Positions 19,101 through 62,152 of a stretch of 64,000 bases of DNA are shown here, piece after piece. Made by a program: the position numbers and the translations under genes. The stretch comes from a virus, in the IMG/VR virus record IMGVR_UViG_3300030104_003441, positions 2,903 to 66,902 of that record. One strand, given 5' to 3'. Positions within the stretch are counted from its first letter, which is position 1. Each line of letters starts with the position of its first letter. The notes beneath the pieces are model-generated. The model was given only the letters and a program-made list of their open reading frames with translations. It was not told the origin of the DNA and searched no databases.

Positions 19101-22100
19101 CTACTTGGCTCAGCTATAACATCTTGCAAATGCTCAAGCACTTTTAAACTATTCTTACCTCTGTTAATGCTTTCAATATAGTTACCAAAGAACTCTACTA
19201 TGTCTGCCTCCTTTGTAAAATTATATTCTTGGTTTAATTCTTTTCCTACAGTTTTCTTAACTAAATCTCTAAGTTCACCAAACGCATTTGCTTTTCTTAA
19301 ATCTCTTAAGTTTTCTGGCTTAGATAAATGCTCAGCTATATGGCTAAATAGCTCCCAGTCTTTTGCTCTAGCGGCTTCCCATGGTGTTTTTTCTACATCA
19401 AACTGACGGTTCTGCTCTACTATCTGATCGTAAAGATTTTCAAAAAGCGGTACGTTTCCATCTGGATCTACACCAAGTTTAATTTTTTTAGCCACACCCA
19501 TAAGTTGTTGCACAAAATCGCTTTTAAATCTAGCATTAGTACCAAATAGTATCTCCATACCTGAGTGACCTAGCTCGTGCGGAGCATACCCTTCTGCAAA
19601 TTCTGCCACGTTATATCTTACTACTACTGTCGAGCCTTTAACTTTTTTACCCATTAAGCCGACGTCCATTACATTACCGTCTTTGTCTTTATAGTAAACC
19701 TCTGCGTTTCTTTTCTCCATGGGTTTCATCAAGATCTCGTAGTTAGCAGCGCCTGATCCACTAGGCTTTTTATTAACCTCTCTTACCTTACCAGTTCTTT
19801 TATCTCGTATTACATACGTGTCAGGGCTACCATATTCTACTTCAACGTTAGCGCCTTTTTCTTTATAGTGCTTAACTTGCTCTAAAGTTCTAGTCTTTAA
19901 TCTTGAAGCGCCTATAGTTCTATCCATTAAATCTAAACCGTCTTCGCTTCTTCTTAATTGGCTAGCTAGGCTTTGAATCAACTGCGAGTAGTCTGCAAAA
20001 TATTCCTTAGTCATAGGCTTTCCGTCCTTTGTCTTCGTACGGTATGCCCTCATTCCAGGCCTTGCGACTATTACAAAGTCTTTTGTTTGGTAGTTCTTTT
20101 TACTAGCAACTTCAAAGTCTTTACCAGTTTTTTTGTTGAAGATAACGTAGTTGTCTCGTGTTTCAAAGATAGCGTCTTCTGCTTCTTTTTTAGCTTCTCT
20201 TAAACTTTCTATTGTACCGGCTTTTTTATAAGCAGCTTTGTGCGTAAAACCAAAAGCGGTACCCATAGCCCAGTTGTTAGCCCAGCGTTGTAAGTTACTT
20301 GATCCATCGCCATAATGCTCTTCTATCATGCCGCTAAACTCTTCGTAACCCATTAAGTCGTCGGTTAACATAAGTCCAAGCTCTCCAACCTCACTACCAA
20401 CCGTGAAGCTTAGAGGTCCTTTAAATGCTAAGTTATATATTTTTTCTAGCCTTGGAGCGTTGTTAGCCATCATAGCACCAAATCTAGTTTTTTGAAAGGC
20501 TGGACTAAACGTGCTCGCGTTTATAGTGCCTAGCATCGGTGATAAAATCTGTGTTGCACCACCAAAGCCAAAACCAGTAGCAAACGACTCTAGTCTTGCG
20601 CCTGAAGAAGAAGGTAAAGAAGCAAACTTTGCACCTTCAATAGTAGACTCAGTTAGAAAAACTCCAACTTTAGAAGCTAAGCTAGCGCCTTTAGTTGCCT
20701 CATAACCACCCTGAGCTAAATACACTGATAAAGGTAATTTAGCGTTGTTTGCCGCTGCTGTTGCTTGAGCTACCGTTAAAGCTTGTTTTCCGTTCCAATA
20801 TCTCTTAGCTTTATGCGCTTTGAGTATCATGTCTAAGCTTTTAGTACCACCAGCAAAAATTTTAGCTGTTCTTAACGAAGCTGTAGCCTTGTTTGCTATG
20901 GCAAACTCAACAAGTATACCTGCGCTAGAAGCAAGTCCCTCACCAAATTGTTCTCCAAAACTTCGATCAATGTAAGCTTTTTGATCTCCTCTAATTTCAA
21001 TACCAGCGTTACTTAAAGTAGTAGTGTACTCGTCTATAACTTCTCTTTCTGTATAGTTGCCATAACCAAAAGCCGCGCCTTCAGGATTAAACGCTTGCCC
21101 TATACTATCTATAAAAGGCAAGCTCATAATAGCTAATTTTGCATAGTTTTGAGCGTTATTCTTTTCTATAGATATAACATCTTCATTTAAAAGATATATT
21201 CTTTTTAATGCCTCTTGTTGTATTTTAAGGTCTCGCATTTGCTGCCTTAATATATTTCTTTCTGCAACTCCATCTGCGTCAAAAACGTGATGAAAGTTTG
21301 ATACACCTCCGCTTGTCTCCATTCCAAGTGGGTTTGTACCGCTTTTCATAAAGGATTCCTCACTATCCATCTTGTTGGACAAAATCAACGCCTCGCGCAG
21401 AGTCATATCTTTATTAGTTGTACCAACTTGTGTAGACTCACCAGTCGCAAAGTTTGACTCAAAATAAATATCTGGTCGATAAAACTCAAAACTTTGAACT
21501 TCGTTTAACTTTGCGTTTAAAACAGCTAGAGCCTTAGCATTTTTTTCATAAGCCTCTCTAGCCATATCTCTTGGCGTTAAGTTTGTATTACTTGCAAACT
21601 CTGCTCTTAATTCATTTTCTTGCTGCTGTATTTCCCCACTAACGTCTTCAGTATTTTCAGTAACAAACGGGTTGTCTTTACCAACTGGTCTAATTAATTG
21701 CCCTGTAGTTAAATCAAATAGCATCTCATATTCCCCACCTTCTTCTCTAACTTTCTGTATGATCTGGTCTCTTCTGCTTATATAAGATTGAATCTCAGCA
21801 TAACGCAGGTTTTCTTGATTATCTAATTGGTAGTTAATACTAGCTAACTCTCTCATCAAAGGATCTTCAATAGTATTAATCTGAGAAGCCGTGTATGTTT
21901 TAAAGAATTGTTCTGCGTCTTTTATGCTTACGGTTTTTCCTTCTTTAGCTTGATAACCACGCACAATTCCACCTGGCCTATTCCCCACTCCTCTGTCTAA
22001 AGTTGGATCATACTCACCAACAGCCATGCCAGGAACAAGCGTAGTAAGCGTTATGTCTCCCTGTAGTAATCTTTCATCAAAGCCAGCCGCTAAATTGTCT

Positions 22101-23719
22101 AAACCTTTGTTCTTGTAACCCTCAATTTCGGCGTGATACCTTTCTTTAATAATGTGATCTATATCTGAATCAGTTAAAGCAGGGTAAGCTTTTCTAACTT
22201 TTTGACCAAACAACGTCCAAGCATCTTCAGTACCTAAACGACCCTTTACTTCTTTAAGAGCATCGTCTATTGTAATAATTCCGGCTCTTATATCTTCAAC
22301 GCGTTTTGGATCGTCCATAAAAGCATGGAAACCGCTTCCGCCTTCTCCAAAATAATTGTCTAGCCAAGTTCTTGAAAAAGATTCTTTTTGCTCTACCCAC
22401 TCCTCTCCTTTTTCATCGGTTAAAGTAGGGTCTTCCTCTAAAAACGTAAGTAACTCTTTAGTAAATTCTGTGCTACTTCTAAGATTAAAATTCTTCGATA
22501 CACCATGAGAATTAGTTATAGTTATGTTATTAACACTAAGATACCTACCACTGCCATCAGAGTCTTCTCCAATACCTTCTTCTACTATGTAATCATTAGG
22601 AAGATACGTTGTAAGCTCCTTTGCAATCTTCTCTTCAGACCACCAACCACCAATATTTGTGTTAATAATTTCAGTTACAACTTCTCTAGCTTTTGTCTTT
22701 TCTTTTGTAGCTACAGCTTTTTGATATACTTTAAGAGCTTCGTTATACGGCTCTACAACCTCTTGATTATACAACTCCTCTACCTTATTAGACCACTGCT
22801 CTTGCATGTCCTCTTGCGCCTTTTGAATCTCTTCGGCTGTTGCGTTGGGTGATATTACAGATGTATCAAGTTCGATTTTATTTAATCGATCACGGTTTTC
22901 AGTATACCAATTGTTGATACCCTGCATTTCAGGTTTTTCAGCGTTGTTAGCTCTAACAAGATTTTCTTCAGAACTATAACCTTGCTCTTGGCCTTGTCTC
23001 ATTTGAGCCAAAAGAGCCTCTTTTTCTTTATCTTCTTCTGACAGCTCTTCTTCTACCGGCTCCTCTCCATACATCATTAAATCCGTAATCCTCTGCTCTT
23101 CTTCAGATATTGCGTCCGGCGTAGGGCCACTTAAACGTTTATCTTCTGCTTCGCGCAAAAGCTTCCCCAGCTCCTCCATTCTTTGATGTTCAGGACTAGA
23201 TGTGTCTATACCAAACGAAGCGAATAAACCATACGGGTCGTTTTCATTTGTATACTCAGGAGTTTGCGGGGTTGTTGGCTCTGGTACATCTAGGCTTAAG
23301 TTAAGTAATGATTGATCAAAATCAATAACCCCAGTAGTGTCTGGCATATCGTAGGAAACCTCAGGCATCTGTATGTTTTGTGAAACATCAAAAGTACTCT
23401 TTACCTGCGTTCCAAAAAGCCCTGTCGTTGCGCCGTCTTCTTCAGTTGCACTAGAGCGAGTAACACCTACGTTAAGCACAGTGCTACCTATATTACGCTG
23501 TCCTGCGTTACGTTGTGAAGTAGGTTGTGATTCAGGTAAACCAATAGAATAATCTCTTTGGAAATCACTAAAACTATTAGTATACAAATTGCTTTGTACA
23601 GCAAGTTTATTGTATAGTTCTCTAGCACCTTCTGGTGAACCATAGTCTATTTTAAACTGCTCAAACGAGTTGGTGTAAAGCTCTTGTTGAAATAACTTTG
23701 TATATAATTCTTGCATCAA
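13157..23719 (-). CDS. 3520-aa polyvalent virion/ejection protein (HExxH metallopeptidase, sigma-like segment, HAD phosphatase, C-terminal Cys/His knuckles)
   Basis: APHELGH (aa ~1381); DFDETL/LTAR/FVDD HAD motifs (aa ~2576 onward); two CxxxxxxGxxC...CxxH repeats; follows the ejection-protein genes. Confidence 0.75.
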   Translation of the reverse strand: MMQELYTKLFQQELYTNSFEQFKIDYGSPEGARELYNKLAVQSNLYTNSFSDFQRDYSIGLPESQPTSQRNAGQRNIGSTVLNVGVTRSSATEEDGATTGLFGTQVKSTFDVSQNIQMPEVSYDMPDTTGVIDFDQSLLNLSLDVPEPTTPQTPEYTNENDPYGLFASFGIDTSSPEHQRMEELGKLLREAEDKRLSGPTPDAISEEEQRITDLMMYGEEPVEEELSEEDKEKEALLAQMRQGQEQGYSSEENLVRANNAEKPEMQGINNWYTENRDRLNKIELDTSVISPNATAEEIQKAQEDMQEQWSNKVEELYNQEVVEPYNEALKVYQKAVATKEKTKAREVVTEIINTNIGGWWSEEKIAKELTTYLPNDYIVEEGIGEDSDGSGRYLSVNNITITNSHGVSKNFNLRSSTEFTKELLTFLEEDPTLTDEKGEEWVEQKESFSRTWLDNYFGEGGSGFHAFMDDPKRVEDIRAGIITIDDALKEVKGRLGTEDAWTLFGQKVRKAYPALTDSDIDHIIKERYHAEIEGYKNKGLDNLAAGFDERLLQGDITLTTLVPGMAVGEYDPTLDRGVGNRPGGIVRGYQAKEGKTVSIKDAEQFFKTYTASQINTIEDPLMRELASINYQLDNQENLRYAEIQSYISRRDQIIQKVREEGGEYEMLFDLTTGQLIRPVGKDNPFVTENTEDVSGEIQQQENELRAEFASNTNLTPRDMAREAYEKNAKALAVLNAKLNEVQSFEFYRPDIYFESNFATGESTQVGTTNKDMTLREALILSNKMDSEESFMKSGTNPLGMETSGGVSNFHHVFDADGVAERNILRQQMRDLKIQQEALKRIYLLNEDVISIEKNNAQNYAKLAIMSLPFIDSIGQAFNPEGAAFGYGNYTEREVIDEYTTTLSNAGIEIRGDQKAYIDRSFGEQFGEGLASSAGILVEFAIANKATASLRTAKIFAGGTKSLDMILKAHKAKRYWNGKQALTVAQATAAANNAKLPLSVYLAQGGYEATKGASLASKVGVFLTESTIEGAKFASLPSSSGARLESFATGFGFGGATQILSPMLGTINASTFSPAFQKTRFGAMMANNAPRLEKIYNLAFKGPLSFTVGSEVGELGLMLTDDLMGYEEFSGMIEEHYGDGSSNLQRWANNWAMGTAFGFTHKAAYKKAGTIESLREAKKEAEDAIFETRDNYVIFNKKTGKDFEVASKKNYQTKDFVIVARPGMRAYRTKTKDGKPMTKEYFADYSQLIQSLASQLRRSEDGLDLMDRTIGASRLKTRTLEQVKHYKEKGANVEVEYGSPDTYVIRDKRTGKVREVNKKPSGSGAANYEILMKPMEKRNAEVYYKDKDGNVMDVGLMGKKVKGSTVVVRYNVAEFAEGYAPHELGHSGMEILFGTNARFKSDFVQQLMGVAKKIKLGVDPDGNVPLFENLYDQIVEQNRQFDVEKTPWEAARAKDWELFSHIAEHLSKPENLRDLRKANAFGELRDLVKKTVGKELNQEYNFTKEADIVEFFGNYIESINRGKNSLKVLEHLQDVIAEPSSPEAREMERLYNEQGIHFTETSRLASESKRRRDLIKDNVDLFKNKPEGYEAKMQENIQAIRSIDDLLVIDRPAQNESDNARKERINRIHAGHKDIMFSKDLVGRDAQRQGEAIDAIISSYRGKTIAVAKSQGRFETPTFENMSKSEREDFAWDITRPELLKHLDAFNRKFRETDGKEGIENDDLDAYLNSYIVNKLGTALKRPGIEKTEFTGTTTDLKPGQEPVYTPSEMKLNNKTDARLRIDIRERLTDNAPEGRESQIKKGIKEHGKFVKDYIETTSDIPTSYRDLKNIKTPKEIVDKVFGKNTAERIETIGRTLDIAKKSALPEGTLSTRTGNVELEGKAIGVANTLQTINIAKKGQPANYKEVLYGTPKRIAEFTSKETGRLTAEADPTGQGNTPKELLKLSKAETLKRLGIKEVELGGGEVRYDIDNTLAKEYASEPGSKNEKAIARNIEGIRKNYMEEVVRGMTYQAAMENLPAVSQKLGIATEILANQISAGKARLASSRLELKDFTEQMEFLDQIESKEFKDLYEKAVTDGEEKAFEHAMITHFANNPIENISKADIKKIATQLEAQFTFTTMTPKRAIEASMKAIAYPKSLQSIEAKYGFEALETKNLYDSIEGIREGQAAFTMEGGIIETLTRVKGKGAFEALIKEGISKGAGLGTYRSHREYEVRNKRTGKVTTTNKKPSKSEIENPENPLEILSVTLIKTAEQNMIEGNTEFRSDNRFALFETAAKAQEAADGVYARLESEGVKLKDYEGSSRADSDGVGKKNKVLEGVTGKDGLWDLEARDKFDNIGEENKKALFDGKGKSSVIETIKDMYTNGDITYRQVRQIVEGQGGPMEGLIKKSASLAVLPEMSRADIEAKYGKNWVLEHTTPAQNVKARIYDYILSKGAAPQAKALELTLRDYHTTLIPESLDTMVNKILKTDLPSFHVPGMDPIESRYYMANHKSPFDLSLVNYRNGKVYSKTGLSVAEVSKRGAMLRESYAEMISPRLAEKNLEPTRMLEQMENMKKAVANSRNPRAKKKGMSTFDFDETLIVDGENFVVATKDGKRVEISSEQWPIEGPKYAEQGYEFDFSDFANVRGGADGPLLQKMKNQISKYGSNNVFVLTARQQASAEPIHSWLRSKGIDIPLENITGLGKSEGAAKAQWMLEKFAEGYNDMYFVDDALPNVEAVKEVLGQLDIKSNVQQARRLASQDMNLEFNKMIERKTGIGYEKIFSGAKGKMLGKRRYTQSIVVPGAQDFMGLMQNFMGKGKRGDADRAFFEENLVKPFARANREMNESRQRASEDLKALYKDIPSVKRKLNKRLPGSAFTFDQAIRTYLWEKNGFDIPELSMRDLKSMTDVINKDVDLRNFAEQLNMIGKGTWVEPSANWIGETIVSDLFNLNNKARRAEYLEEWQQNIDTIFTPTNLNKIEATQGSKFREALEDSLYRMRTGSNRPTGANRLTNQFNNWINGSVGATMFLNMRSAMLQTISATNYINWSFNNPVAAAKAFGNQKQYWKDFSMLWNSPMLKQRRAGLEYNVQEAELAAAMAGQKNPAKAAVAWLIKKGFTPTQIADSFAICAGGSTYYRNKIRELVKQGKTKQQAEEQAFLEFQELTETNQQSSRADLISQQQASGLGRTILAWSNTPMQYMRIQEKAARDIVNGRGDLKTNMSKIAYYGVIQSAIFSALQNALFRFGLEEEDENNEADNKDLSASIDRTVNTVIDSQLRGTGVLGAALSAIRNTVLEFEKQEAKAYDDSFLSSPDHSRTVLQLTSFSPVISSKLRKLYSAGNEWNYNREAISEMGFDIDNPAIHAGANVIEALSNLPVARLVQKVDNIQGMLDNNNETWQRVALLMGYPKWQLGIEDTEVEEAKQRGRDKIKAIKDAEREIEKQQKEIVKADEELAEVEDNMLDQDEEREQGAEEVQCAAVSRSGKRCSNMALPGENFCTIHQQVAQQEDEVQCSHIKKDGKQCKMKTKNKSGKCYYHD

Positions 23720-53359: not shown

Positions 53360-53662
53360 TTATATTGGTGTATCCGAAGGGATAAATTGTCCTGTTGTTG
53401 CTAGATTATCAAAATCTTGAGCTTCGTACGTATCGCGAGCTCCATGCATATCACCAGCATTGTACCACTTAGCTCTACGCTTTCTTTTAAACTGTCTATC
53501 TAGCTCTAACTTATCAACAGCTTTGCTCTTCATAGGCGAATCGCTAGACAACTGCGTAAGGGTGGTAGCTACGGTCTCCATTTGAGGAGCTTCTTCAGCT
53601 TTCTTAAACGCTGAGCGCCTAAGTCTTTTACCGTGCATTACGCGTCTTTTACATCTCGCCAT
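53360..53662 (-). CDS. basic hypothetical protein, first gene of the late block
   Basis: SAFKK and SPMK motifs; directly below a class B promoter. Confidence 0.6.
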   Translation of the reverse strand: MARCKRRVMHGKRLRRSAFKKAEEAPQMETVATTLTQLSSDSPMKSKAVDKLELDRQFKRKRRAKWYNAGDMHGARDTYEAQDFDNLATTGQFIPSDTPI

Positions 53663-53684
53663 TGTTCTATTCTTTTATACTTCT

Positions 53685-53713
53685 TATAGTTACACGCTTA
53701 ATCTGCTATTTAC
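53685..53713 (-). promoter_or_regulatory. class B promoter heading the late block
   Basis: Minus strand GTAA-N14-GTGTAACTATA. Confidence 0.7.
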
Positions 53714-53717
53714 AAAG

Positions 53718-53764
53718 TGTGACATAAGCCTACTACTAGGATACTATTAACTAGCTAGTGTCAC
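53718..53764. repeat. palindromic element A (inverted homolog of 60739-60784)
   Basis: TGTGACATAAGCCT...TACTATTA...GCTAGTGTCAC. Confidence 0.7.
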
Positions 53765-53800
53765 TAAAAAAACATATTGTAAATATAGGGGCTATGCGTT

Positions 53801-53829
53801 CCCCCCTCCCCCCGCCCCCTCCCCTCCCC
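53801..53829 (-). other. G-quadruplex-type tract
   Basis: Minus strand G4-A-G4-A-G5-C-G6-A-G6 in an AT-rich genome. Confidence 0.7.
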
Positions 53830-53890
53830 AGGAAAAGTCAAACTCTCACAGGGCCCCACCTACTTGTTAAACTCATTATTGCTCGTTTTT

Positions 53891-53921
53891 ACAATGTATC
53901 TACGACAGTATTTAGATAATA
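53891..53921 (+). promoter_or_regulatory. class A early promoter copy 1
   Basis: ACAA-TGTATC-TACGA-N8-AGATAATA. Confidence 0.7.
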
Positions 53922-53991
53922 AATATAGAAAAACAAACTAAAAAACTCTACTACATTTTTAAAATCGTTTACAAAACTTCTAAAACATTTT

Positions 53992-54022
53992 ACAAAATAA
54001 ATACGAGAATACTTAGATAATA
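53992..54022 (+). promoter_or_regulatory. class A early promoter copy 2
   Basis: ACAA-AATAAA-TACGA-N8-AGATAATA. Confidence 0.75.
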
Positions 54023-54036
54023 AATATGTAAATCAA

Positions 54037-54225
54037 ATGAACATGAAAACTCTTATAATTAAAACAATAGCTAACAACTTTAGAAAAAAGCTACCAATCG
54101 CTCGCAACTTAAAAGTTCAACACATTAACTACATGTATGAATATAACTACATTAAACTATTCAAATCATTAGTTGACTCATTCAAACTAGAACCTCAACA
54201 CTTCAATAATAGATTTATCAAATGA
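54037..54225 (+). CDS. early hypothetical protein
   Basis: ORF below promoter copy 2. Confidence 0.5.
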   Translation: MNMKTLIIKTIANNFRKKLPIARNLKVQHINYMYEYNYIKLFKSLVDSFKLEPQHFNNRFIK

Positions 54226-54287
54226 AACAATTACTCGAATCAATACTCATAATTGTAATAATACTACTGTGTTGTTGTGTGTACTAA
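54222..54287 (+). CDS. 21-aa hydrophobic peptide MKQLLESILIIVIILLCCCVY
   Basis: ATGA overlap with the upstream stop; TM-like. Confidence 0.35.
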   Translation: MKQLLESILIIVIILLCCCVY

Positions 54288-54360
54288 ATAATTGTACACT
54301 TACAGAAGTGGCGGAATACTACTAACGTGAAATTGTATACTAAACAAACAATACTCTTTT

Positions 54361-54391
54361 ACAAACTAAATACGTAAGCATTTAGATAATA
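54361..54391 (+). promoter_or_regulatory. class A early promoter copy 3
   Basis: ACAA-ACTAAA-TACGT-N8-AGATAATA. Confidence 0.75.
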
Positions 54392-54428
54392 ATAATAACT
54401 AAAACAAAAACATTAAATACTTTATATC

Positions 54429-54668
54429 ATGTCAAATAATACATTAACATCAAAGCGTTTCGTTCTACGTCAATCACTTGTTGGAAAGAACACTAACATT
54501 ACAGTAACATTCAAAAATGGTAACACAGTTACTTACTCACACGACAAAGCATTCACTATAATGCAAAAAGCACTTGAAGCAATGCCATGTTGGGCAAAGT
54601 ACAAGTCGTACACTGCTAGTAACAATATACCAAAAGTGTTGCGTGAAACTGAAGCAGTAGTAGCATAA
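54429..54668 (+). CDS. early hypothetical protein
   Basis: SKRFVLRQSLVGKN...CWAKYKSYT; A-rich leader. Confidence 0.7.
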   Translation: MSNNTLTSKRFVLRQSLVGKNTNITVTFKNGNTVTYSHDKAFTIMQKALEAMPCWAKYKSYTASNNIPKVLRETEAVVA

Positions 54669-54684
54669 CTACTCTTCAACATAA

Positions 54685-54777
54685 AGTCCAGTTAGTTTAG
54701 TGTTTACTGGTAAATCAAATATGAACACTAACATAGTAGTCATGGTGCCGAGTTGTGTTCGATTCACAAGCTACTAC
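54685..54777 (+). ncRNA. candidate structured RNA: pseudoknot plus tRNA-like minihelix
   Basis: CCAGT/ACTGG with TTAGTGTT/AACACTAA crossing pairs; TAGTAGT..TTGTG-TTCGATT-CACAA-GCTACTA. Confidence 0.5.
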
Positions 54778-54806
54778 AAACTAAATACGATAACTTACAG
54801 ATAATA
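54776..54806 (+). promoter_or_regulatory. class A early promoter copy 4 (leaderless geometry)
   Basis: Consensus match; ATG 6 nt after GATAAT. Confidence 0.8.
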
Positions 54807-54811
54807 ATACT

Positions 54812-55117
54812 ATGATATTCGATAAGAAACTACGAGCTGAAGTGAAAATACAGCGTGATGCAGTGCATCAATTACTCAAGCACCACTTGCCAAAGTACGA
54901 GCTAACACTAATCGGTGACAGTGAAATACAACTCACATGGCACTCAAATCCTCACTGTCTACGTGAAACATTACTTACGTGTAGTATGTATGGCGAGTGG
55001 CAATACGAAGAGCACCAATGGGAATGCTTCGATAACTATCATCACTCAACAGACTTAAAGGTTGACTACACGTCACCTGCTAACGAAGTTGTTAATGCAC
55101 TAATGAAACTACTATGA
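54812..55117 (+). CDS. early hypothetical protein
   Basis: Starts exactly at the predicted +1 of promoter copy 4. Confidence 0.7.
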   Translation: MIFDKKLRAEVKIQRDAVHQLLKHHLPKYELTLIGDSEIQLTWHSNPHCLRETLLTCSMYGEWQYEEHQWECFDNYHHSTDLKVDYTSPANEVVNALMKLL

Positions 55118-55369
55118 GATTACTATCAACTATCGCGCTGTGCTTAGTATTTAACGCAGAGATAAATCAAGGTTGGCAAGGCTGGGTAAACTCTACTTGG
55201 GATATTGTCACTATAATTGAAACTAGAAAAACTATATAATATGAGAAAATTTAATCACCTTGTAATCGCAGAGATTACCATGAAAGCATTACTTGCTTTA
55301 AATATTGGTACGTTTGGTATCGCTATAATAATGTTACTTGTTAACGTAGTATCAGACTTCACAAACTAA
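55114..55369 (+). CDS. two small hydrophobic ORFs (55114-55239, 55241-55369)
   Basis: MRLLSTIALCLVF...; MRKFNHL...DFTN* whose stop lies inside promoter copy 5. Confidence 0.45.
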
Positions 55370-55391
55370 TTACGATAAGTAATAGATAATA
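55361..55391 (+). promoter_or_regulatory. class A early promoter copy 5 (leaderless geometry)
   Basis: ACAA-ACTAAT-TACGA-N8-AGATAATA; ATG at 55397. Confidence 0.8.
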
Positions 55392-55396
55392 ATAAT

Positions 55397-55567
55397 ATGA
55401 AGACAATAAAATTTCTAAAAGACAAAAAAATACAAATAGGCAAACGTGTGTTTCGCCCATACTGTATCAGCGACTTACCAAACAACTTCGGTTGTATTAA
55501 CTACGGCGAGTCAGATGGTGTAACCGAATGGTTCGGCTACAAAGGTTTCACTTATATACCAGAATAA
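55397..55567 (+). CDS. early hypothetical protein (56 aa, not in ORF track)
   Basis: MKTIKFLKDKKIQIG...WFGYKGFTYIPE; starts at predicted +1. Confidence 0.65.
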   Translation: MKTIKFLKDKKIQIGKRVFRPYCISDLPNNFGCINYGESDGVTEWFGYKGFTYIPE

Positions 55568-55569
55568 TC

Positions 55570-55776
55570 ATGTATCTAACTATTCTATCTTACGACATTC
55601 TAAGAGGTAACGAAGTAATCACATATGAATTACCGAGTTATGCAGCGAAATTCCAATGCGAAGACATGGAAGAGTATATCTCAGTCACACTTGGTTTCAA
55701 TACAAACAACATTGACTGGCAAACTCACGAGGAATTACCTCAACTTGTTGAACTACATAATCAAGACTACGCATGA
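55570..55776 (+). CDS. early hypothetical protein (start likely 55570)
   Basis: MYLTILSYD...GFNTNNIDWQ. Confidence 0.6.
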   Translation: MYLTILSYDILRGNEVITYELPSYAAKFQCEDMEEYISVTLGFNTNNIDWQTHEELPQLVELHNQDYA

Positions 55777-56276
55777 ATCAAGCTAAAAAATACAGAAAAT
55801 ACTACGAAGCTCTCGACTTGATCGGTTGCAAGCACGTGTCAACACCACGTCAAATCAAGAACGGTACACGCGTATTCCGCCTACCTTTCAAAGACGCTTG
55901 GAATCAAGACATAGACTTTGCTACATACGAGTCAGGTTATGTACGTAGATTAGTAAAGCTCGGTTACTGTCCTTGTTATCAAATCAACAAGAGAAAGCCA
56001 GAAACTCGCCTAATTGAAGTGAAAAGCGGTCCACACAAAGGCTATTACTACAAAAGACGCTCAAACGAACGTGTGTTAATTGAAGGTAATGGCGATCGAC
56101 TAGAGTACTTATTCAACTATATTGTACGTAATTACTTCAAAGCTAAACCAAAGTACAATAGAACTATTGACCTAGAGTGGTTAAACTTCTGTGCAAAGTG
56201 GCAATACGGCGAGTTTGGCTTCAACACTTGCACTGAGCAACAGCAAAATGAAATACTAAAATCTTTACAATCATGA
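55773..56276 (+). CDS. early hypothetical protein
   Basis: STPRQIKNGT...YESGYVRR...YQINKR. Confidence 0.65.
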   Translation: MNQAKKYRKYYEALDLIGCKHVSTPRQIKNGTRVFRLPFKDAWNQDIDFATYESGYVRRLVKLGYCPCYQINKRKPETRLIEVKSGPHKGYYYKRRSNERVLIEGNGDRLEYLFNYIVRNYFKAKPKYNRTIDLEWLNFCAKWQYGEFGFNTCTEQQQNEILKSLQS

Positions 56277-56384
56277 ATTACTGTCCATGGGATACTGCAT
56301 TTAAACTATGCAAAGGCGCTTATACGCGCGAAGAAATCGACGAAATGTCGCTATGTGAAATTAACGAAATAATATTTGACCAAC

Positions 56385-56729
56385 ATGACTAGTTACGAAC
56401 AAAGAGCATATGATGCGCTCGCAATGAAGCTAACCGAAGCAGGTTACGCGTATGAGAATACAAGTTGGAGTAATGATGCAACTGCATCTATATCAGTAAC
56501 TTGCGTGCGTGTAGTTCAATCAGAAGATGAGATTGACAAAGTAATGAAGTATGAGTTTCAAATCTATATACCTAACTGTGATTACTTCGACCCAGATAAC
56601 GAGTATTTTAATACTTACGCACTCACTGACGAGATGACTGGTCACACATTTGATTTCGATCGAGCAGACGAAGTTGTAGAGCATATTCAAGATTGTGTCG
56701 ATGGTAATTCGGTTGTTTTTACAAACTAA
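56385..56729 (+). CDS. early hypothetical protein (start likely ATG 56385)
   Basis: ENTSWSNDATASI; stop codon lies inside promoter copy 6. Confidence 0.65.
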   Translation: MTSYEQRAYDALAMKLTEAGYAYENTSWSNDATASISVTCVRVVQSEDEIDKVMKYEFQIYIPNCDYFDPDNEYFNTYALTDEMTGHTFDFDRADEVVEHIQDCVDGNSVVFTN

Positions 56730-56751
56730 ATACGATTACTTTTAGATAATA
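56721..56751 (+). promoter_or_regulatory. class A early promoter copy 6 (leaderless geometry)
   Basis: Consensus match; ATG at 56757. Confidence 0.8.
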
Positions 56752-56756
56752 ATAAT

Positions 56757-56969
56757 ATGAAATGTCCAAAATGCAATAACACAATACCAACTGGCCGCGT
56801 GCGCCTTGGTTACAAAGTATGTGTCAACTGTTCTACTGTAGAGCGTTATGGTTGTGCACCGCTTATAAACCACAAGACAGGCAACTCAATACAAATTATG
56901 TCCAGCAGTGATGCTGCTCGTATTGCCAAGCTTACAAGGCGTCGCGGTTATGGTACAATGCTAAAATAA
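56757..56969 (+). CDS. C4 zinc-finger protein (TraR/DksA-type finger spacing)
   Basis: CPKC...IPTGRV.LGYKVCVNCS matches the CxxC..IP..R......CxxC pattern. Confidence 0.55.
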   Translation: MKCPKCNNTIPTGRVRLGYKVCVNCSTVERYGCAPLINHKTGNSIQIMSSSDAARIAKLTRRRGYGTMLK

Positions 56970-56970
56970 T

Positions 56971-57327
56971 ATGAATAAAGAAAATTTACAAACAAAGTTA
57001 GAAGCGCTAGAGGCTAACGTACAAGCAAAACAAAATGAATTAGGTGTTGCTATGTCAGAAGCTCAAATGGCGCGAGAAGAACTAGCTAATGCAGGTAAGC
57101 CTGAATTATCAGCAGACAAGGCTTCAGATCTAGTGGATTTGTTACAAGGTATGTTTCACGATATACTAAATGACTGTGACACTAGCGACCTAAGCCCAGA
57201 GTTCAGTATAGGCTACGATAACACTATCGAACTCGACTGTCTTGACATGAGCAGCATCGAAGTACATAGCTGTGATATCGAGTCTGTACTAGAGCAGATA
57301 TTCAATATAATGCCTGACAATAGCTAG
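56971..57327 (+). CDS. coiled-coil acidic early protein
   Basis: N-terminal heptads, acidic C-terminus. Confidence 0.65.
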   Translation: MNKENLQTKLEALEANVQAKQNELGVAMSEAQMAREELANAGKPELSADKASDLVDLLQGMFHDILNDCDTSDLSPEFSIGYDNTIELDCLDMSSIEVHSCDIESVLEQIFNIMPDNS

Positions 57328-57329
57328 TT

Positions 57330-57680
57330 AAGCACGACGGTGCAAGGTGTAGTAGAGCATATGTTGAAAATATTTCAAACTACTACATAACGGGTCAAGG
57401 TAGTCTACGCTACCGTAATGCCACCTAAAGTAGGACACGGGTAATTACCGTATTAAAGGCAATGACTACGCGTTGATCGCAGGTAGACCTGACGAAGGTA
57501 TCGCTGGTTAGGGTAACCGCCAGGACCATTACTCAGCAGCAATTCCGCTGTAAGAGCATGGGTACAAAGCCGGGTCAACGCTTTATATAAGAGTAACGGT
57601 TGGTTAGGGTCTAGTGCAGCTGATCTTAAGGTCAAGCACAATAAGAAACAATTCCGCAGGTTCGATTCCTGCTACTCTTA
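57330..57680 (+). ncRNA. candidate ~350-nt structured ncRNA ending in a tRNA-like domain
   Basis: Free of long + strand ORFs, GC-enriched, many hairpins, terminal GCAGG-TTCGATT-CCTGC T-arm stacked on AAGAGTA/TACTCTT. Confidence 0.65.
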
Positions 57681-57710
57681 CAAACTAAACACGAATACTA
57701 ACGGATAATA
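57680..57710 (+). promoter_or_regulatory. class A early promoter copy 7 (leaderless geometry)
   Basis: ACAA-ACTAAA-CACGA-N8-GGATAATA; ATG at 57716. Confidence 0.8.
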
Positions 57711-57715
57711 TTAAC

Positions 57716-57904
57716 ATGAAAGACTATATTACACAAGAGCTGTCAATGCTCGATCGTAGCATCGTAGCTACACCACACACCAAAGAAGACCTAGAGTCTT
57801 TTGCTAAAGCAAACAATGGTTGTAGCGATATACTACTTATGCAAATGGCAATGCAATACGGCTATAAGCTAGCATTAGAAAACTTAGAAACAGAATTAAT
57901 ATGA
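57716..57904 (+). CDS. early hypothetical protein
   Basis: Starts at predicted +1. Confidence 0.65.
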   Translation: MKDYITQELSMLDRSIVATPHTKEDLESFAKANNGCSDILLMQMAMQYGYKLALENLETELI

Positions 57905-58137
57905 GACAAACCTTATACCAAAGACTAACACCAGAGTGCAAAGAAGCTCTAGATCATAACTCTAAGCGTTGGCATGGCGCAACTAACAAAATAGTTAGCG
58001 TGCTATCGTCACATAAATTCTGGTCTGATTTAAGAGTAGGCGACGTACACTTTGTTGTACAGTTCGTAGATCTACCATTTGGAAAAATAACAAGCGGAAC
58101 ATATGCGTTCGGCGAAAACATTATTAAAGATGACTGA
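57901..58137 (+). CDS. early hypothetical protein
   Basis: ATGA overlap. Confidence 0.6.
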   Translation: MRQTLYQRLTPECKEALDHNSKRWHGATNKIVSVLSSHKFWSDLRVGDVHFVVQFVDLPFGKITSGTYAFGENIIKDD

Positions 58138-58408
58138 AAAAGAAAAAGCACTAGAAATGTTACCTAATTGGTTTCAAGGTGAAGTATATGAATTAGGCGA
58201 TGAAGTTCGTAATCCATTTAGTGGTGAAACGTGCTTACTTGACGCAGCAGAGTTAAGTATGTACGACCACATTAAAGGTTTAGAACTAGCAATAATAATG
58301 AACATACCTATATTTGACTTAGGTGATAAATATATTGACATTATAGACAAAGGTAAAGATTGGTTTTTGATTAAAAACCCTAACGCATACATGATACTAA
58401 TAGACTAA
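58130..58408 (+). CDS. early hypothetical protein (start likely 58130)
   Basis: LPNWFQG...VRNPFSGE...ELSMYD.IKG...NPNAYMILID. Confidence 0.65.
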   Translation: MTEKEKALEMLPNWFQGEVYELGDEVRNPFSGETCLLDAAELSMYDHIKGLELAIIMNIPIFDLGDKYIDIIDKGKDWFLIKNPNAYMILID

Positions 58409-58511
58409 TGAAGACACTAATATGTATATTATTTTTTTACGTAGTTTTAGGCGCGTATTTTGAGTATCAAAACAGACAAGAAAACGAAGACGAAATAGAA
58501 AGAGATTCATC

Positions 58512-58862
58512 ATGAGTACAAGAGCAACAATAAGGTTCGCAACACGCGAAGAAGGTGTACCTTTTGACAAACACCCAGAGCAATGGCACGCACAGTTCTA
58601 CAACCATTGGGACGGTTATCCTGAAGGATTAGGTGTAGAGATCGCAGAGTCATTTACTAATTATCGTAAAATAGAAGGCTGGGAAGTAGAAGCCCTTGAT
58701 ATTGTACACGGCGATGTAGAATACATATACTACATATGGCAGTGTCACGGTAAATCAGAGCCTTGGATTAGTATATTTAATGTTGACTGCGAGTGTGAAT
58801 TTGTAGGTACACCAGATATGTTACTAAAGAAATACAAACTAAATACGAACGATGACGGATAA
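58512..58862 (+). CDS. conserved phage hypothetical protein
   Basis: MSTRATI...YNHWDGYPEGLG...EYIYYI motif. Confidence 0.7.
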   Translation: MSTRATIRFATREEGVPFDKHPEQWHAQFYNHWDGYPEGLGVEIAESFTNYRKIEGWEVEALDIVHGDVEYIYYIWQCHGKSEPWISIFNVDCECEFVGTPDMLLKKYKLNTNDDG

Positions 58863-58864
58863 TA
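58834..58864 (+). promoter_or_regulatory. class A early promoter copy 8 (leaderless geometry)
   Basis: ACAA-ACTAAA-TACGA-N8-GGATAATA; ATG at 58870. Confidence 0.8.
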
Positions 58865-58869
58865 ATAAT

Positions 58870-59715
58870 ATGATGAGACATAAACCAATGCTGGCGTATC
58901 CAGTCAGCGATAAACCAATTGACTACAGCGATCCTGTATTCATGCAACCAAAGCTTGACGGCGTACGCTGCCTTATACAGTGTGACAAAAGCAAGGTAAC
59001 CGCATGGTCACGCACGGGTAAACAGTGGCTTAACATCGATCACATCTTGTTTAACTTGCAACCTTTTTTCAAGTTTCACCCAAATGTAGTACTTGATGGC
59101 GAGCTATATAACCACGACTTACGTGATGATTTCGAGCAAATTATCTCTTGCGTGCGTAAGACTAAACCAACAGATCAACACCGCTTTGATTCAGCTAGAC
59201 TTGTGCAGTTTCACTGCTACGATATAGTTGGCAAAGGTATGCATCTTCCATATGCTAAACGCGCAGAGTGGATCGGCGAAAATGTCATGCCTAACCACTG
59301 CGTCAAACGCGTGCAAGCTTATGTTGTTGGCTGTGAAGATCAAGCTAAGGCTTATCACCAGAAAAACCTAGACAAAGGTTACGAAGGCTCTATACTACGT
59401 CTTAACACTGAGTACCAAGAAAAGCGTTCTCATAGCTTGCGTAAGTTCAAAGACTTCCACGACACCGAAGCAGAGATTATTGGTTGGGTTGAAGGCAAAG
59501 GCAAGCGTGTAGGCACGATCGGTAAGTTCTTGGCTCGTGATGCTGATGGCATCGAGTTCGGTATGCCTGTTATGGATAACTTCAAGTACCTACAGGCTAA
59601 CTTCAAAGCTATGCAAGGCTGGGTTGGCAAAACTGCTACGTTTACTTACTTCGAGCGTACTAAAGCTAACAGCTATCGTCATCCACTGTTCAAATGTATA
59701 CGCGACTACGAATGA
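58870..59715 (+). CDS. lig: ATP-dependent DNA ligase (start likely 58870)
   Basis: KPMLA, QPKLDGVRC (motif I), LDGELY, YEGSILR, RHP motifs. Confidence 0.9.
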   Translation: MMRHKPMLAYPVSDKPIDYSDPVFMQPKLDGVRCLIQCDKSKVTAWSRTGKQWLNIDHILFNLQPFFKFHPNVVLDGELYNHDLRDDFEQIISCVRKTKPTDQHRFDSARLVQFHCYDIVGKGMHLPYAKRAEWIGENVMPNHCVKRVQAYVVGCEDQAKAYHQKNLDKGYEGSILRLNTEYQEKRSHSLRKFKDFHDTEAEIIGWVEGKGKRVGTIGKFLARDADGIEFGMPVMDNFKYLQANFKAMQGWVGKTATFTYFERTKANSYRHPLFKCIRDYE

Positions 59716-60784: not shown

Positions 60785-61400
60785 GTATGAACGCAACTTA
60801 GAGCTGTTAAACAAGAGACGCATCGTATATAGAAGAGATCCTATAACAGATACACCTGATATAGAAAATGATATGTATATGTTCTTTGAAAACGGCACAC
60901 ATCAATGCTATGATCTATTTAAGAGCACAGCAAAGATAACCACCTACAAGAGTCTTAAGTGGCACTTGTTAGTGCTGTGGTATCTAAATCCAGGTATGGA
61001 TCAAGATGAATTTATGGATATAGCTTTTGAAATATCTGCTAAGACAAATGGTTTTGTTAGTTTTAACATGCCGCCTAACTTATTAGAAAAAATAGTATAT
61101 GAAGTCAGCATACAAGAGATTAAAGAACCACCGAAAAACAAACTCAGAAAAGTTATTTTCAAAATGTTTTCAGGGCTTACCAAAGAGCAGAAACTACGTA
61201 TTGTAGGTAAGCTTATTGGTAGATCAAATAAAACGCATCCTGACGACATTTATCAGGCTATGATAGATATACATGACTTAGGCCAAAAGATTACGATAAA
61301 ACGTATCTCTGAGGCTCTAAGGGTATCATCTAGGACCGTGCATAGATATATGTGCGAGGATTTAAAACGTGAAAAAGAATTATTAAACAAACAACTATGA
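60777..61400 (+). CDS. HTH DNA-binding protein, possibly replication-initiator-like (PriCT-like plus HTH)
   Basis: C-term ITIKRISEALRVSSRTVHRYM helix-turn-helix. Confidence 0.6.
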   Translation: MSQYERNLELLNKRRIVYRRDPITDTPDIENDMYMFFENGTHQCYDLFKSTAKITTYKSLKWHLLVLWYLNPGMDQDEFMDIAFEISAKTNGFVSFNMPPNLLEKIVYEVSIQEIKEPPKNKLRKVIFKMFSGLTKEQKLRIVGKLIGRSNKTHPDDIYQAMIDIHDLGQKITIKRISEALRVSSRTVHRYMCEDLKREKELLNKQL

Positions 61401-62152
61401 AGTGTTATAATGTACAAAACTACATCCGTTATAAAAAAGATATAAAGCAGATAGTAAAACGCACTGACTTTTGTAGACCATGGGATGAGATGACTCGCGA
61501 TGAACTAGTTACCTTATTTCTACCTCTTGCAGAAAACCTAGCTAGAAAGTTTTCAACAACTCAGCAAGCTAGCGGTGTAATGACTATTAATGATCTTATA
61601 CAAGAAGCTAATAAAAATTTAGTTATTGCTGTAGATAAAATTAGCTGGGATACTATATATGAAGCTGAAGACCCAGAGCAAAGACTTAAATCATTTTTGT
61701 CAAAAAGAATTAAAGGCGGCGTGCGAAGAGCTGTAGATATAAACCGAGGCACTATGCGTATACCTGAGCACAAGCTAAATGAAATACGTAAAAATGATAA
61801 AGACAGAAGTCAATTAGAAATATTTTTTAACTCAGTGTTTGTTAGTTTAGATAAAATGCTGGACGACGCAAATATAGGGTTTGAAGTGCCTGATAAAATT
61901 AAAAGCTATAACCCCGAACTACTGTGTTCTTATTTGCTTAATTTACTAAATCAGCATTTAACAGATCGAGAGTCCGATGTCATAAAGTTTAGCTTTGGTT
62001 TAGGTTGTGATAAGCTGTCAGCGAAGCAAATAGCAGATAAGCTAGACATAAGAGGCGACAGCGCTTACGTACGCATATCGCAGTTAAAAAAGCAAGCGAT
62101 TGATAAACTTGTAGAAAACGTAGACTACTCGCAAGTGGTTGACTTTCTATAG
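61397..62152 (+). CDS. sigma70-family RNA polymerase sigma factor
   Basis: Region 2 LAENLARKF...DLIQEAN..LVIAVDK...IKGGVRRAV...MRIP; region 4 LTDRESDVI...FGL...KQIADKL...RISQLKKQAIDKL. Confidence 0.9.
   Translation: MKCYNVQNYIRYKKDIKQIVKRTDFCRPWDEMTRDELVTLFLPLAENLARKFSTTQQASGVMTINDLIQEANKNLVIAVDKISWDTIYEAEDPEQRLKSFLSKRIKGGVRRAVDINRGTMRIPEHKLNEIRKNDKDRSQLEIFFNSVFVSLDKMLDDANIGFEVPDKIKSYNPELLCSYLLNLLNQHLTDRESDVIKFSFGLGCDKLSAKQIADKLDIRGDSAYVRISQLKKQAIDKLVENVDYSQVVDFL

What the first reader, a model, noticed from the sequence alone, without database searches (positions are those of the whole stretch)
54685..54777. Minimal 43-nt tRNA mimic (acceptor plus T-arm only) preceded by an H-type pseudoknot
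Seen: TAGTAGT (54734-40), a 12-nt linker CATGGTGCCGAG containing a D-loop-like TGG, TTGTG-TTCGATT-CACAA, then GCTACTA (54770-76). This is a canonical 7/5 top half of a tRNA with no anticodon arm. Upstream, CCAGT (54688-92)/ACTGG (54706-10) and TTAGTGTT (54697-704)/AACACTAA (54724-31) cross as a pseudoknot. Like the 57.6-kb element it has the same TTCGATT loop, different but fully paired stems (natural covariation), and ends on the ACAA of a class A promoter. Inference: a reusable tRNA-like 3'-end processing or stability signal, or a decoy against tRNA-targeting defences.
Basis: partly seen in the sequence, partly recalled or inferred. Interest (0 to 1): 0.7.

Follow-up and report, generated by a model that had tools for sequence, protein, structure and literature searches.

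The report
Phage pseudoknot plus tRNA-like cut signal
Between two early genes of an uncultured marine phage lies a conserved RNA knot followed by a miniature tRNA look-alike, which most likely tells the host's tRNA-trimming enzymes where to cut the phage's long messages.

Summary
At 54688-54731 an H-type pseudoknot (PK) and at 54734-54777 a tRNA "top half" (TLS: acceptor helix, GG-containing linker, T-arm with loop TTCGATT, no anticodon arm) are present. Neither folds better than shuffled sequence. The support is comparative. In IMG/VR relatives the PK is 97.2% paired over 39 distinct sequences, with two-sided changes in 8 of 12 pairs. The TLS is 92.9% paired, 11 of 12 pairs.

Two amendments:
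- The first acceptor pair (54734/54776) is not conserved. The conserved core is 6 bp followed by an invariant A-C tail.

The middle of the TLS is a variable slot of 9-165 nt. Abutting the promoter-like motif is local to this phage.

Best reading (about 0.5, inferred): a t-element/mascRNA-like signal. RNase P and RNase Z would cut read-through early transcripts here, leaving the upstream mRNA capped by the PK and the downstream ORF nearly leaderless. The decoy idea is untested. No RNA ends could be read.

This scan has noted tRNA top-half mimics in other phages before. Five literature searches found no published description.

The parts
54429..54668 (+). Upstream 79-aa ORF. The PK/TLS follows its homologues in relatives.
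   Evidence: ORF list. 58 IMG/VR loci encode a relative. No Pfam or PHROG family.
54688..54691 (+). PK stem S1, 5' strand (CCAG)
   Evidence: Pairs with 54707-54710. 156 of 156 cells paired in 39 distinct sequences, and 2 of 4 pairs covary. S1 was not part of the model that made the alignment.
54692..54696 (+). PK loop L1, part of the invariant GTTAGTT
   Evidence: Invariant columns in A3/A8.
54697..54704 (+). PK stem S2, 5' strand
   Evidence: Pairs with 54724-54731. 95.8% of cells paired, and 6 of 8 pairs have two-sided changes.
54707..54710 (+). PK stem S1, 3' strand (CTGG)
54711..54723 (+). PK loop L3, A-rich and nearly invariant (ATCAAATATGAA core)
   Evidence: Conserved columns in A3, A8 and A10.
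54724..54731 (+). PK stem S2, 3' strand
54734..54740 (+). TLS acceptor, 5' strand. The conserved helix is 54735-54740; 54734 pairs only in this sub-lineage.
54741..54752 (+). Linker standing in for the D and anticodon arms, with GG at 54744-45. In relatives this slot holds 9-165 nt.
   Evidence: GG lies within the first 12 nt in 50 of 56 distinct TLS, against 0.21 in random 12-mers. The slot is 9-13 nt in 24 of 56.
54753..54769 (+). T-arm: 5-bp stem and loop TTCGATT, closed by G-C
   Evidence: T-stem 100% paired, with 4 of 5 pairs covarying and the closing G-C in 10 of 10. Loop TTCGATT in 42 of 56.
54770..54777 (+). TLS acceptor 3' strand (54770-75), then the family-invariant A-C tail (54776-77)
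   Evidence: A-C follows the 6-bp helix in 42 of 63 distinct candidates, and also follows the phages' genuine tRNAs.
54775..54811 (+). Promoter-like repeat, one of 7 copies, ending at the ATG of the next ORF. It overlaps the TLS tail.
54812..55117 (+). Downstream 101-aa ORF
   Evidence: No Pfam or PHROG family.
57589..57681 (+). Second TLS of the genome, with a 60-nt insert in the middle slot
   Evidence: Its homologue in L110 is minimal, with a 10-nt linker.

Best explanation
The 93-nt element is two RNA modules read on the + strand transcript.

1. A tRNA top-half mimic (TLS): acceptor helix stacked on a T-arm, with a GG linker that can close the tRNA elbow. It would be recognised by the host's tRNA end-processing enzymes. 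RNase P would cut at the 5' edge of the acceptor (54733/34 or 54734/35). RNase Z would cut after the discriminator (54776 or 54777).
2. An H-type pseudoknot (PK) that ends 2-3 nt before that cut.

The early region has promoters but no + strand terminators, so transcripts read through from gene to gene. Cutting at the TLS would:
- separate the messages;
- leave the upstream mRNA ending almost flush with the PK, which would act as a block to 3' exonucleases;
- in relatives where an ORF starts 0-2 nt after the TLS, free a nearly leaderless mRNA that could not otherwise be initiated next to an 11-12-bp helix.

Shown: both folds, their conservation, their strand, their spacing and their gene context. 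Inferred: every enzymatic step and the protective role of the PK.
For: TLS fold:
- 92.9% of cells paired against 59.4% in shuffles. 11 of 12 pairs have two-sided changes. Covariation 0.900 against 0.254 shuffled and <=0.156 slid (10 sequences picked by eye).
- tRNA hallmarks: T-loop TTCGATT in 42 of 56, G53-C61 in 10 of 10, GG in the linker in 50 of 56 against 0.21 background.
- The same A-C tail follows genuine phage tRNAs.

PK fold:
- 97.2% paired, 8 of 12 pairs covary, covariation 0.430 against 0.151 shuffled and <=0.091 slid.
- In a second sub-clade, 126 of 126 cells paired and 5 of 7 pairs covary.

RNA on the + strand:
- 17 G.U against 2 A.C cells in the PK.
- 53 of 55 TLS model hits are on the gene strand. 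The other two are in loci fetched in reverse orientation.

Coupling of the modules:
- 31 of 39 distinct PKs are followed by a T-arm within 300 nt.
- The spacer from the PK to the acceptor is -1 to 4 nt in 24 of 30.

Punctuation-like context:
- The next ORF's ATG lies 0-2 nt after the TLS in 13 of 51 candidates, in front of at least 6 different genes.
- A genuine tRNA-Arg in L168 has the same layout: stop codon 5 nt before it, ATG 2 nt after it.
- All 6 terminator-like sites in 53500-59000 are on the - strand.

Precedent:
- t-elements are cleaved by RNase P/Z, define mRNA ends and become CCA-tailed (PMC1920247 abstract; PMC11658184 passages).
- MALAT1 is cut by RNase P at a tRNA-like structure, releasing mascRNA (PMC4919922 passages).
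Against: - No RNA 5' or 3' end was seen. The only RNA data were contigs of relatives, which cannot show ends.
- The host and its RNase P/RNase Z are unknown.
- The fold in this window is thermodynamically weak, and the MFE fold does not draw the T-arm.
- The conserved stack is 11 bp in this lineage, not the canonical 12. No CCA is encoded.
- A structured leader 2-3 nt from the cleavage site could hinder bacterial RNase P.
- 7 of 39 PKs have no TLS, and some TLS have no PK (57.6 kb, L154). The two modules therefore also work alone, and the PK's nearly invariant loops suggest a specific ligand rather than a mere roadblock.
- The counts of ATG positions include related sequences that are not independent.
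Confidence: 0.5

Rival explanations
1. The excised PK-TLS (or the TLS alone) is itself the product. It would be a stable small RNA that binds or titrates a host or phage factor that recognises tRNA elbows or acceptor ends, for example a tRNA-modifying enzyme, the CCA-adding enzyme or a tRNA-targeting defence nuclease. The variable middle slot would carry lineage-specific cargo.
For: - The nearly invariant PK loops (GTTAGTT, ATCAAATATGAA) point to a specific partner.
- The middle slot takes structured inserts of 16-165 nt in 32 of 56 TLS.
- Two copies lie in one genome.
- t-elements are CCA-tailed and base-modified after excision (PMC11658184 passages).
Against: - No anticodon arm, so anticodon nucleases could not be decoyed.
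- Acceptor sequences differ freely between lineages, so no identity set is kept.
- Nothing shows accumulation of such an RNA.
- This reading is compatible with the processing reading rather than exclusive of it.
Confidence: 0.17
2. The PK is a cis-acting regulatory RNA that binds a phage protein, a small ligand or RNA polymerase (as put-like antiterminators do). The TLS would be an unrelated neighbour.
For: - 7 of 39 PKs stand without a TLS, in one case 15 nt before a promoter-like motif.
- Loop sequences are more conserved than stems.
- The PK nearly always follows the same 79-aa gene.
Against: - 31 of 39 PKs are followed by a T-arm, and 24 of 30 within -1 to 4 nt, which is too regular for chance neighbours.
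- The distance from the upstream stop codon varies from 19 to more than 80 nt, which argues against recoding.
- No terminator lies downstream for an antiterminator to overcome.
- No Rfam riboswitch model matches.
Confidence: 0.15
3. The TLS helps translation of the next ORF directly, as an uncleaved 5' structure that recruits ribosomes.
For: The ATG lies 0-2 nt or 13-17 nt after the TLS in 25 of 51 candidates.
Against: - An 11-12-bp helix 1-2 nt from the start codon lies inside the 30S binding site and would be expected to block initiation (established knowledge, not tested).
- In the window a promoter-like motif sits between the TLS and the ATG, so the TLS is not in that gene's own transcript.
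Confidence: 0.07
4. The element acts at the DNA level or is a relic. It would be a decaying tRNA gene, or the tRNA-end half of a recombination or attachment site.
For: - Relatives carry genuine tRNA genes 0.5-1.5 kb downstream in 14 of 60 loci scanned.
- Close relatives share flanks but have swapped TLS interiors (window against L124/L092), which suggests recombination at these sites.
Against: - Compensatory changes in 11 of 12 TLS pairs.
- 17 G.U against 2 A.C cells in the PK.
- The GG and the T-loop are retained.
- A 5' acceptor strand is present, which an att-site remnant does not need.
- None of the 9 window ORFs scanned against Pfam and PHROGs matched an integrase; most ORFs were not scanned.
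Confidence: 0.05

Closest known systems
t-elements of plant mitochondria (Forner et al. 2007, PMC1920247, abstract read; Arabidopsis tRNA-seq study PMC11658184, passages read)
   Same: tRNA-like structures inside polycistronic transcripts, at the 5' or 3' ends of mRNAs. They are thought to be cut by RNase P and/or RNase Z, carry no encoded CCA and play no part in decoding.
   Different: t-elements are homologous to whole tRNA genes and keep cloverleaf-like folds. Here only the acceptor, the T-arm and a GG linker remain. The element is in a phage, is often paired with a pseudoknot, and no cleavage has been shown.
MALAT1 / MEN-beta 3' end with mascRNA (RNase P review PMC4919922, passages read; the protective triple helix upstream is recalled, not read)
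   Same: A compact, A-rich higher-order structure lies immediately upstream of a tRNA-like structure. An RNase P cut would create a 3' end protected by the upstream structure and release a small tRNA-like RNA.
   Different: Eukaryotic nuclear lncRNA against phage mRNA. mascRNA is a full cloverleaf. The upstream structure there is a U-A.U triple helix and here an H-type pseudoknot. No Rfam match to mascRNA-type models in the region at E<=10.
tRNA-like domain of tmRNA (recalled)
   Same: Acceptor plus T-arm with a reduced D-loop analogue and no anticodon arm. The rest of the molecule is inserted where the anticodon arm would be, as in the long-insert relatives. Pseudoknots lie nearby.
   Different: ARAGORN finds no tmRNA. 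No tag reading frame. 3:70 is G-C, not G.U. The PK lies 5' of the acceptor, not inside the loop.
tRNA-like 3' ends of plant RNA viruses with upstream pseudoknot domains, e.g. tymo- and tobamoviruses (recalled; mentioned in PMC11658184 for brome mosaic virus)
   Same: A viral tRNA mimic preceded by pseudoknot(s).
   Different: Those sit at the genome's 3' terminus, end in CC(A), are aminoacylated and serve replication and translation of an RNA genome. This one is internal to a DNA phage's operon, with no CCA and no conserved identity elements.
Mitochondrial tRNA punctuation of polycistronic transcripts (recalled)
   Same: tRNA-shaped units between ORFs with start codons abutting the tRNA 3' end, giving leaderless mRNAs.
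   Different: There the punctuating units are functional tRNAs. Here they are non-decoding mimics. Genuine tRNAs in relatives show the same layout once.

Membership tests
tRNA (Rfam RF00005 / ARAGORN) | Cloverleaf with D-arm and anticodon arm | tested here: not met
   ARAGORN: 0 genes in the window, and no TLS called in 60 related loci. No RF00005 hit at 54.7 kb at E<=10. Only 12 nt lie between the acceptor and the T-stem.
tRNA top-half / minihelix mimic | Acceptor helix stacked on a 5-bp T-stem with a T-loop of consensus TTCRANN closed by G-C | tested here: met
   The conserved acceptor is 6 bp, not 7, in this lineage.
tRNA top-half / minihelix mimic | D-loop-like GG able to close the elbow with the T-loop | tested here: inconclusive
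   GG is conserved (50 of 56 against 0.21 background). The tertiary contact itself cannot be tested with these tools.
H-type pseudoknot | Two helices whose strands interleave (S1-5', S2-5', S1-3', S2-3'), both supported by covariation | tested here: met
   S1 is 4 bp, not 5.
t-element-like processing signal | Cleavage by RNase P and/or RNase Z that defines mRNA ends in vivo | not testable with these tools
   Only contigs of RNA runs were available, and they cannot show ends.
t-element-like processing signal | Position at the boundary between cistrons of a co-transcribed unit | tested here: met
   Intergenic in the window. Follows the same gene in relatives. ATG 0-2 nt downstream in 13 of 51. 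No + strand terminator-like site. Co-transcription itself is inferred.
tmRNA | Tag-peptide reading frame and alanine identity pair G3.U70 | tested here: not met
   ARAGORN finds no tmRNA. 3:70 is G-C.
Known Rfam families (riboswitch pseudoknots, small ribozymes, mascRNA, viral TLS, Y RNA-like) | Match to the family's covariance model | tested here: not met
   0 hits at gathering score in the window. None over 54685-54777 at E<=10.

The most novel reading that the evidence does not exclude
Uncultured marine phages punctuate their early polycistronic transcripts as mitochondria do, but with purpose-built, non-decoding tRNA top halves. Each cut would be coupled to an upstream pseudoknot that caps the new 3' end, a bacterial-virus counterpart of the MALAT1 triple-helix/mascRNA module. 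Each cut would also release nearly leaderless mRNAs. The variable middle slot would make the TLS a general cassette for excising other structured RNAs.
Probability: 0.35. Interest if true: 0.8.

Novelty: new variant of a known kind. Interest (0 to 1): 0.62.

Why it matters
If the reading is right, phages of abundant marine bacteria use the host's tRNA-maturation enzymes as their mRNA-processing machinery. They would do it with a compact signal of about 45 nt and a dedicated 3'-end knot.

That would:
- add a bacterial-virus example to a strategy known from organelles and one class of mammalian lncRNA;
- explain how operons without terminators, and with start codons abutting stable helices, are expressed;
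- provide two well-defined new RNA motifs with rich covariation for structural and enzymatic work;
- flag a feature that gene callers and tRNA finders currently miss.

Tried and rejected
- RNA evidence. One search for runs and one laying of four RNA runs on 53800-58200 gave only short contigs. Most were 90-95% like the window, so they come from relatives. No ends, strands or levels can be read from them. Nothing can be said about transcription or cleavage.
- Thermodynamics. Neither module nor the whole element folds better than shuffles.
- Known families. ARAGORN and Rfam at gathering score and at E<=10 gave nothing at this site.
- N4-like idea. A 3519-aa ORF suggested an N4-type virion RNA polymerase, but it matches no Pfam or PHROG family. 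I dropped the idea. The phage encodes a sigma factor instead.
- Cultured relatives. No phage record matches the 79-aa protein or the sigma factor. blastn of 7.5 kb found only a 138-nt match to Flavobacterium phages.
- Host. The genome search 'relatives' is not available for virus records. A genome-contig scan with the PK pattern gave 16 stretches. Only 2 fit the PK model: a 1-kb contig of a Bacteroidetes MAG, and a weak hit in a Sulfurimonas MAG. This is only a weak hint to the host.
- Alignment limits. The TLS model R1 put the window element in a register shifted by one and could not bridge long inserts. Its alignment A7 was therefore not used for pair counts. MAFFT alignments A1, A3 and A4 were structurally inconsistent between sub-clades and were not counted.
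- Recoding. The PK as a stimulator of read-through or frameshifting was rejected, because its distance from the upstream stop codon varies from 19 to more than 80 nt.
- Literature. Five searches found no paper describing tRNA top-half mimics or this pseudoknot in phages. Supplementary files were not consulted.

Full report
**What is there**

The finding lies in a 143-nt gap between two + strand ORFs, 54429-54668 (79 aa) and 54812-55117 (101 aa).

- Acceptor-like helix: 54734-40 with 54770-76 (seven pairs, one U.G).
- Linker: 12 nt with GG at 54744-45.
- T-arm: 5-bp T-stem around the loop TTCGATT (54753-69).
- Upstream: two helices whose strands interleave. S1 is 54688-91 with 54707-10. S2 is 54697-704 with 54724-31.

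The genome is a 66.9-kb virus record rated complete. It encodes a sigma factor, a DNA ligase, a ribonucleotide reductase and a MazG-like protein. Its 3519-aa ORF matches no Pfam or PHROG family, so I do not call the phage N4-like.

**Is it more than chance?**

On its own the element looks weak.

- ARAGORN finds no tRNA or tmRNA.
- Rfam finds nothing at gathering score, and nothing here at E<=10.
- Folding energies are ordinary: z -1.19 for the TLS, -0.54 for the PK, -0.34 together. The MFE fold keeps the acceptor but not the T-arm.

Two results speak for it.

- A scan for a T-loop hairpin whose 3' neighbour has a 7/7 complement upstream finds two sites in the window (54734 and 57589, both on +). 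Shuffles give 0.14 on average.
- A covariance model built from seven elements of other phages finds 54735-54777 as the best hit in the window (E 0.0024).

**Relatives**

A pattern scan of IMG/VR first showed orthologues. I then fetched loci through the upstream 79-aa protein, which does not depend on the RNA. This gave 58 loci. Most carry the knot and a tRNA-like element downstream of that gene. ARAGORN calls none of these elements a tRNA. It does find genuine tRNA genes, mostly tRNA-Arg(TCT), further downstream in 14 of the 60 loci scanned.

**The tRNA-like element (TLS)**

I counted pairs on ten minimal elements chosen by eye and aligned without reference to structure.

| Measure | Observed | Shuffled | Partner slid |
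|---|---|---|---|
| Cells paired | 92.9% | 59.4% | - |
| Pairs with changes on both sides | 11 of 12 | - | - |
| Covariation score | 0.900 | 0.254 | at most 0.156 |

The T-stem's closing G-C is invariant.

Across 56 distinct elements:

- The loop is TTCGATT in 42.
- A GG lies within 12 nt after the acceptor in 50, against 0.21 for random 12-mers.

GG is what a tRNA elbow needs (G18/G19 with positions 55/56; textbook knowledge, not tested here).

The part between the acceptor and the T-stem is a free slot: 9-13 nt in 24 of 56, and 16-165 nt in the others. The closest relative of the window (L124/L092) has the same flanks and acceptor, but a 77-nt insert and a T-stem that differs by two compensatory pairs. 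The window's second element at 57.6 kb carries a 60-nt insert, while its homologue in L110 is minimal.

**Amendments to the TLS**

- When the helix is read from the T-arm outward, the conserved part is six pairs followed by an A-C tail. This holds in 42 of 63 distinct candidates.
- In the window's register, among the 29 elements with an A after the helix, the base in front of the helix is T in 11, C in 9, A in 6 and G in 3.
- The pair 54734/54776 is therefore a feature of this sub-lineage. The A at 54776 may be the discriminator.
- In another sub-clade an A.C layer sits between the acceptor and the T-stem, in 8 of 10 sequences.
- The genuine tRNAs of these phages are also followed by A-C.

**The pseudoknot (PK)**

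| Set | Distinct sequences | Cells paired | Pairs with two-sided changes | Covariation |
|---|---|---|---|---|
| Close relatives | 12 | 92.9% | 5 of 13 | - |
| Second sub-clade, different stems | 18 | 126 of 126 cells | 5 of 7 | - |
| Wider set, aligned by a model of S2 alone | 39 | 97.2% | 8 of 12 | 0.430 (0.151 shuffled, <=0.091 slid) |

- In the wider set S1, which the model did not know, is paired in 156 of 156 cells, with two covarying pairs.
- The alignment of the wider set leans towards S2 by construction.
- G.U cells outnumber A.C cells 17 to 2, as expected for an RNA read from the + strand.
- The loops (GTTAGTT and the A-rich ATCAAATATGAA stretch) are nearly invariant.

**How the two modules relate**

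- Of 39 distinct knots, 31 are followed within 300 nt by a T-arm, 30 of them with an acceptor-type pairing.
- Seven have none, and one locus is too short to tell.
- The gap from the last S2 pair to the acceptor is -1 to 4 nt in 24 of 30, 8-11 nt in 3, and more than 60 nt in 3.
- TLS without a knot also exist (57.6 kb, L154).

The modules are separable but usually joined.

**Context**

- The motif CAAACTAAAYACGA occurs seven times, only on the + strand, between 53993 and 58848. Each copy ends at a fixed distance before an ATG. GATAAT sits at -12 to -7 from the A of the ATG in several copies, which suggests promoters that make leaderless mRNAs.
- The TLS touches this motif only in the window and its nearest relative.
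- Elsewhere the TLS is followed by an ORF. Among 51 unique candidates the next ATG that opens at least 35 codons lies 0-2 nt after the discriminator in 13, 13-17 nt in 12, and 34-35 nt (the promoter type) in 5. The 51 include a few chance hits on the other strand.
- The 0-2-nt cases precede at least six different genes. They are nonetheless related sequences, not independent trials.
- One genuine tRNA-Arg (L168) has a stop codon 5 nt before it and an ATG 2 nt after it.
- No terminator-like site lies on the + strand in 53500-59000. All six found are on the - strand.

**Best explanation**

The TLS is a processing signal of the t-element kind. RNase P would cut at its 5' edge and RNase Z after its discriminator.

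- These steps are inferred from the anatomy and from established knowledge that both enzymes recognise the acceptor/T-arm stack and elbow (recalled).
- A helix of 11-12 bp one or two bases from a start codon should block initiation unless it is removed. That makes cleavage the simplest way to express the abutting ORFs.
- After an RNase P cut the upstream mRNA would end 2-3 nt past the knot. That overhang is too short for 3' exonucleases (recalled), so the knot would act as a protective cap.

The nearest analogues:

- Plant mitochondrial t-elements (PMC1920247 abstract; PMC11658184 passages: cleaved, CCA-tailed, base-modified, not aminoacylated).
- The MALAT1/mascRNA module (PMC4919922 passages; its triple helix is recalled).

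I put this reading at about 0.5.

**Rivals**

- A functional excised small RNA or decoy: 0.17.
- A knot with its own ligand or polymerase target: 0.15.
- A direct role in translation: 0.07.
- A DNA-level site or relic: 0.05.

**What is missing**

- No RNA end was seen. The four RNA runs gave only contigs, mostly of relatives.
- The host is unknown. The only hints are a 138-nt match to Flavobacterium phages and one knot on a 1-kb contig of a Bacteroidetes MAG.

**Novelty**

- Five literature searches found no description of such elements in phages. A review of viral RNA regulation that I checked mentions tRNA-like structures only in general terms (PMC9693318, passages).
- Earlier notes of this scan report tRNA top-half mimics in other phages and name t-elements as the closest kind. 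I reached the same comparison and tested the fold here independently.
- The conserved knot, its tight spacing to the TLS and the A-C tail are additions made here.

Noticed in passing
window 57328-57681: A gap of about 390 nt with no long + strand ORF folds somewhat better than shuffles (z -1.76) and ends in the second TLS (57589-57681). Its beginning is conserved in L001, L048 and L110. The only Rfam hit there is a weak tRNA match at 57605-57680 (E 5.1), below gathering score. It may be a larger non-coding RNA whose 3' end is set by the TLS.
   Followed up: partly
window 53993, 54362, 54777, 55362, 56722, 57681, 58835 (+): Seven copies of a promoter-like repeat of about 35 nt, each ending at an ATG, with GATAAT at -12 to -7 from the ATG in several. 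The phage encodes its own sigma factor at 61397-62149.
   Followed up: partly
window 54658-54664: A second, perfect 7/7 complement to the acceptor 3' strand (54770-76) lies in the last codons of the upstream ORF. It is also present in L123 and L126, but not in L125 or L128. This could be an alternative long-range pairing that would enclose the whole knot, or coincidence.
   Followed up: no
L145, L152, L159, L160, L165, L168, L169 (30-60 nt upstream of their knots); similar in L171, L173: A hairpin with a conserved loop (GAAGTGCTGAtTA) precedes the knot in the second sub-clade. It is not present in the window.
   Followed up: partly
L188, L191, L201, L207, L213 (downstream of knots that lack a TLS); also L177: A conserved imperfect palindrome (GACAATAGCCTGTTA ... 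GTCACA) recurs in these loci. Function unknown.
   Followed up: no
L005, L011, L013 and many contigs of one large IMG/VR data set: A different phage group carries a perfect minimal TLS (7-bp acceptor, 11-nt linker with GG, T-loop TTCGATT). It lies directly after an intrinsic-terminator-like hairpin and about 20 nt before an ATG. These contigs were found only because the TLS is followed by the same CAAACTAAA words.
   Followed up: no
L168 4636-4713: A genuine tRNA-Arg(TCT) is wedged between a stop codon 5 nt upstream and an ATG 2 nt downstream that opens a 40-codon, very basic ORF.
   Followed up: partly
window 13157-23719 (-): A 3519-aa ORF with no Pfam or PHROG match.
   Followed up: no
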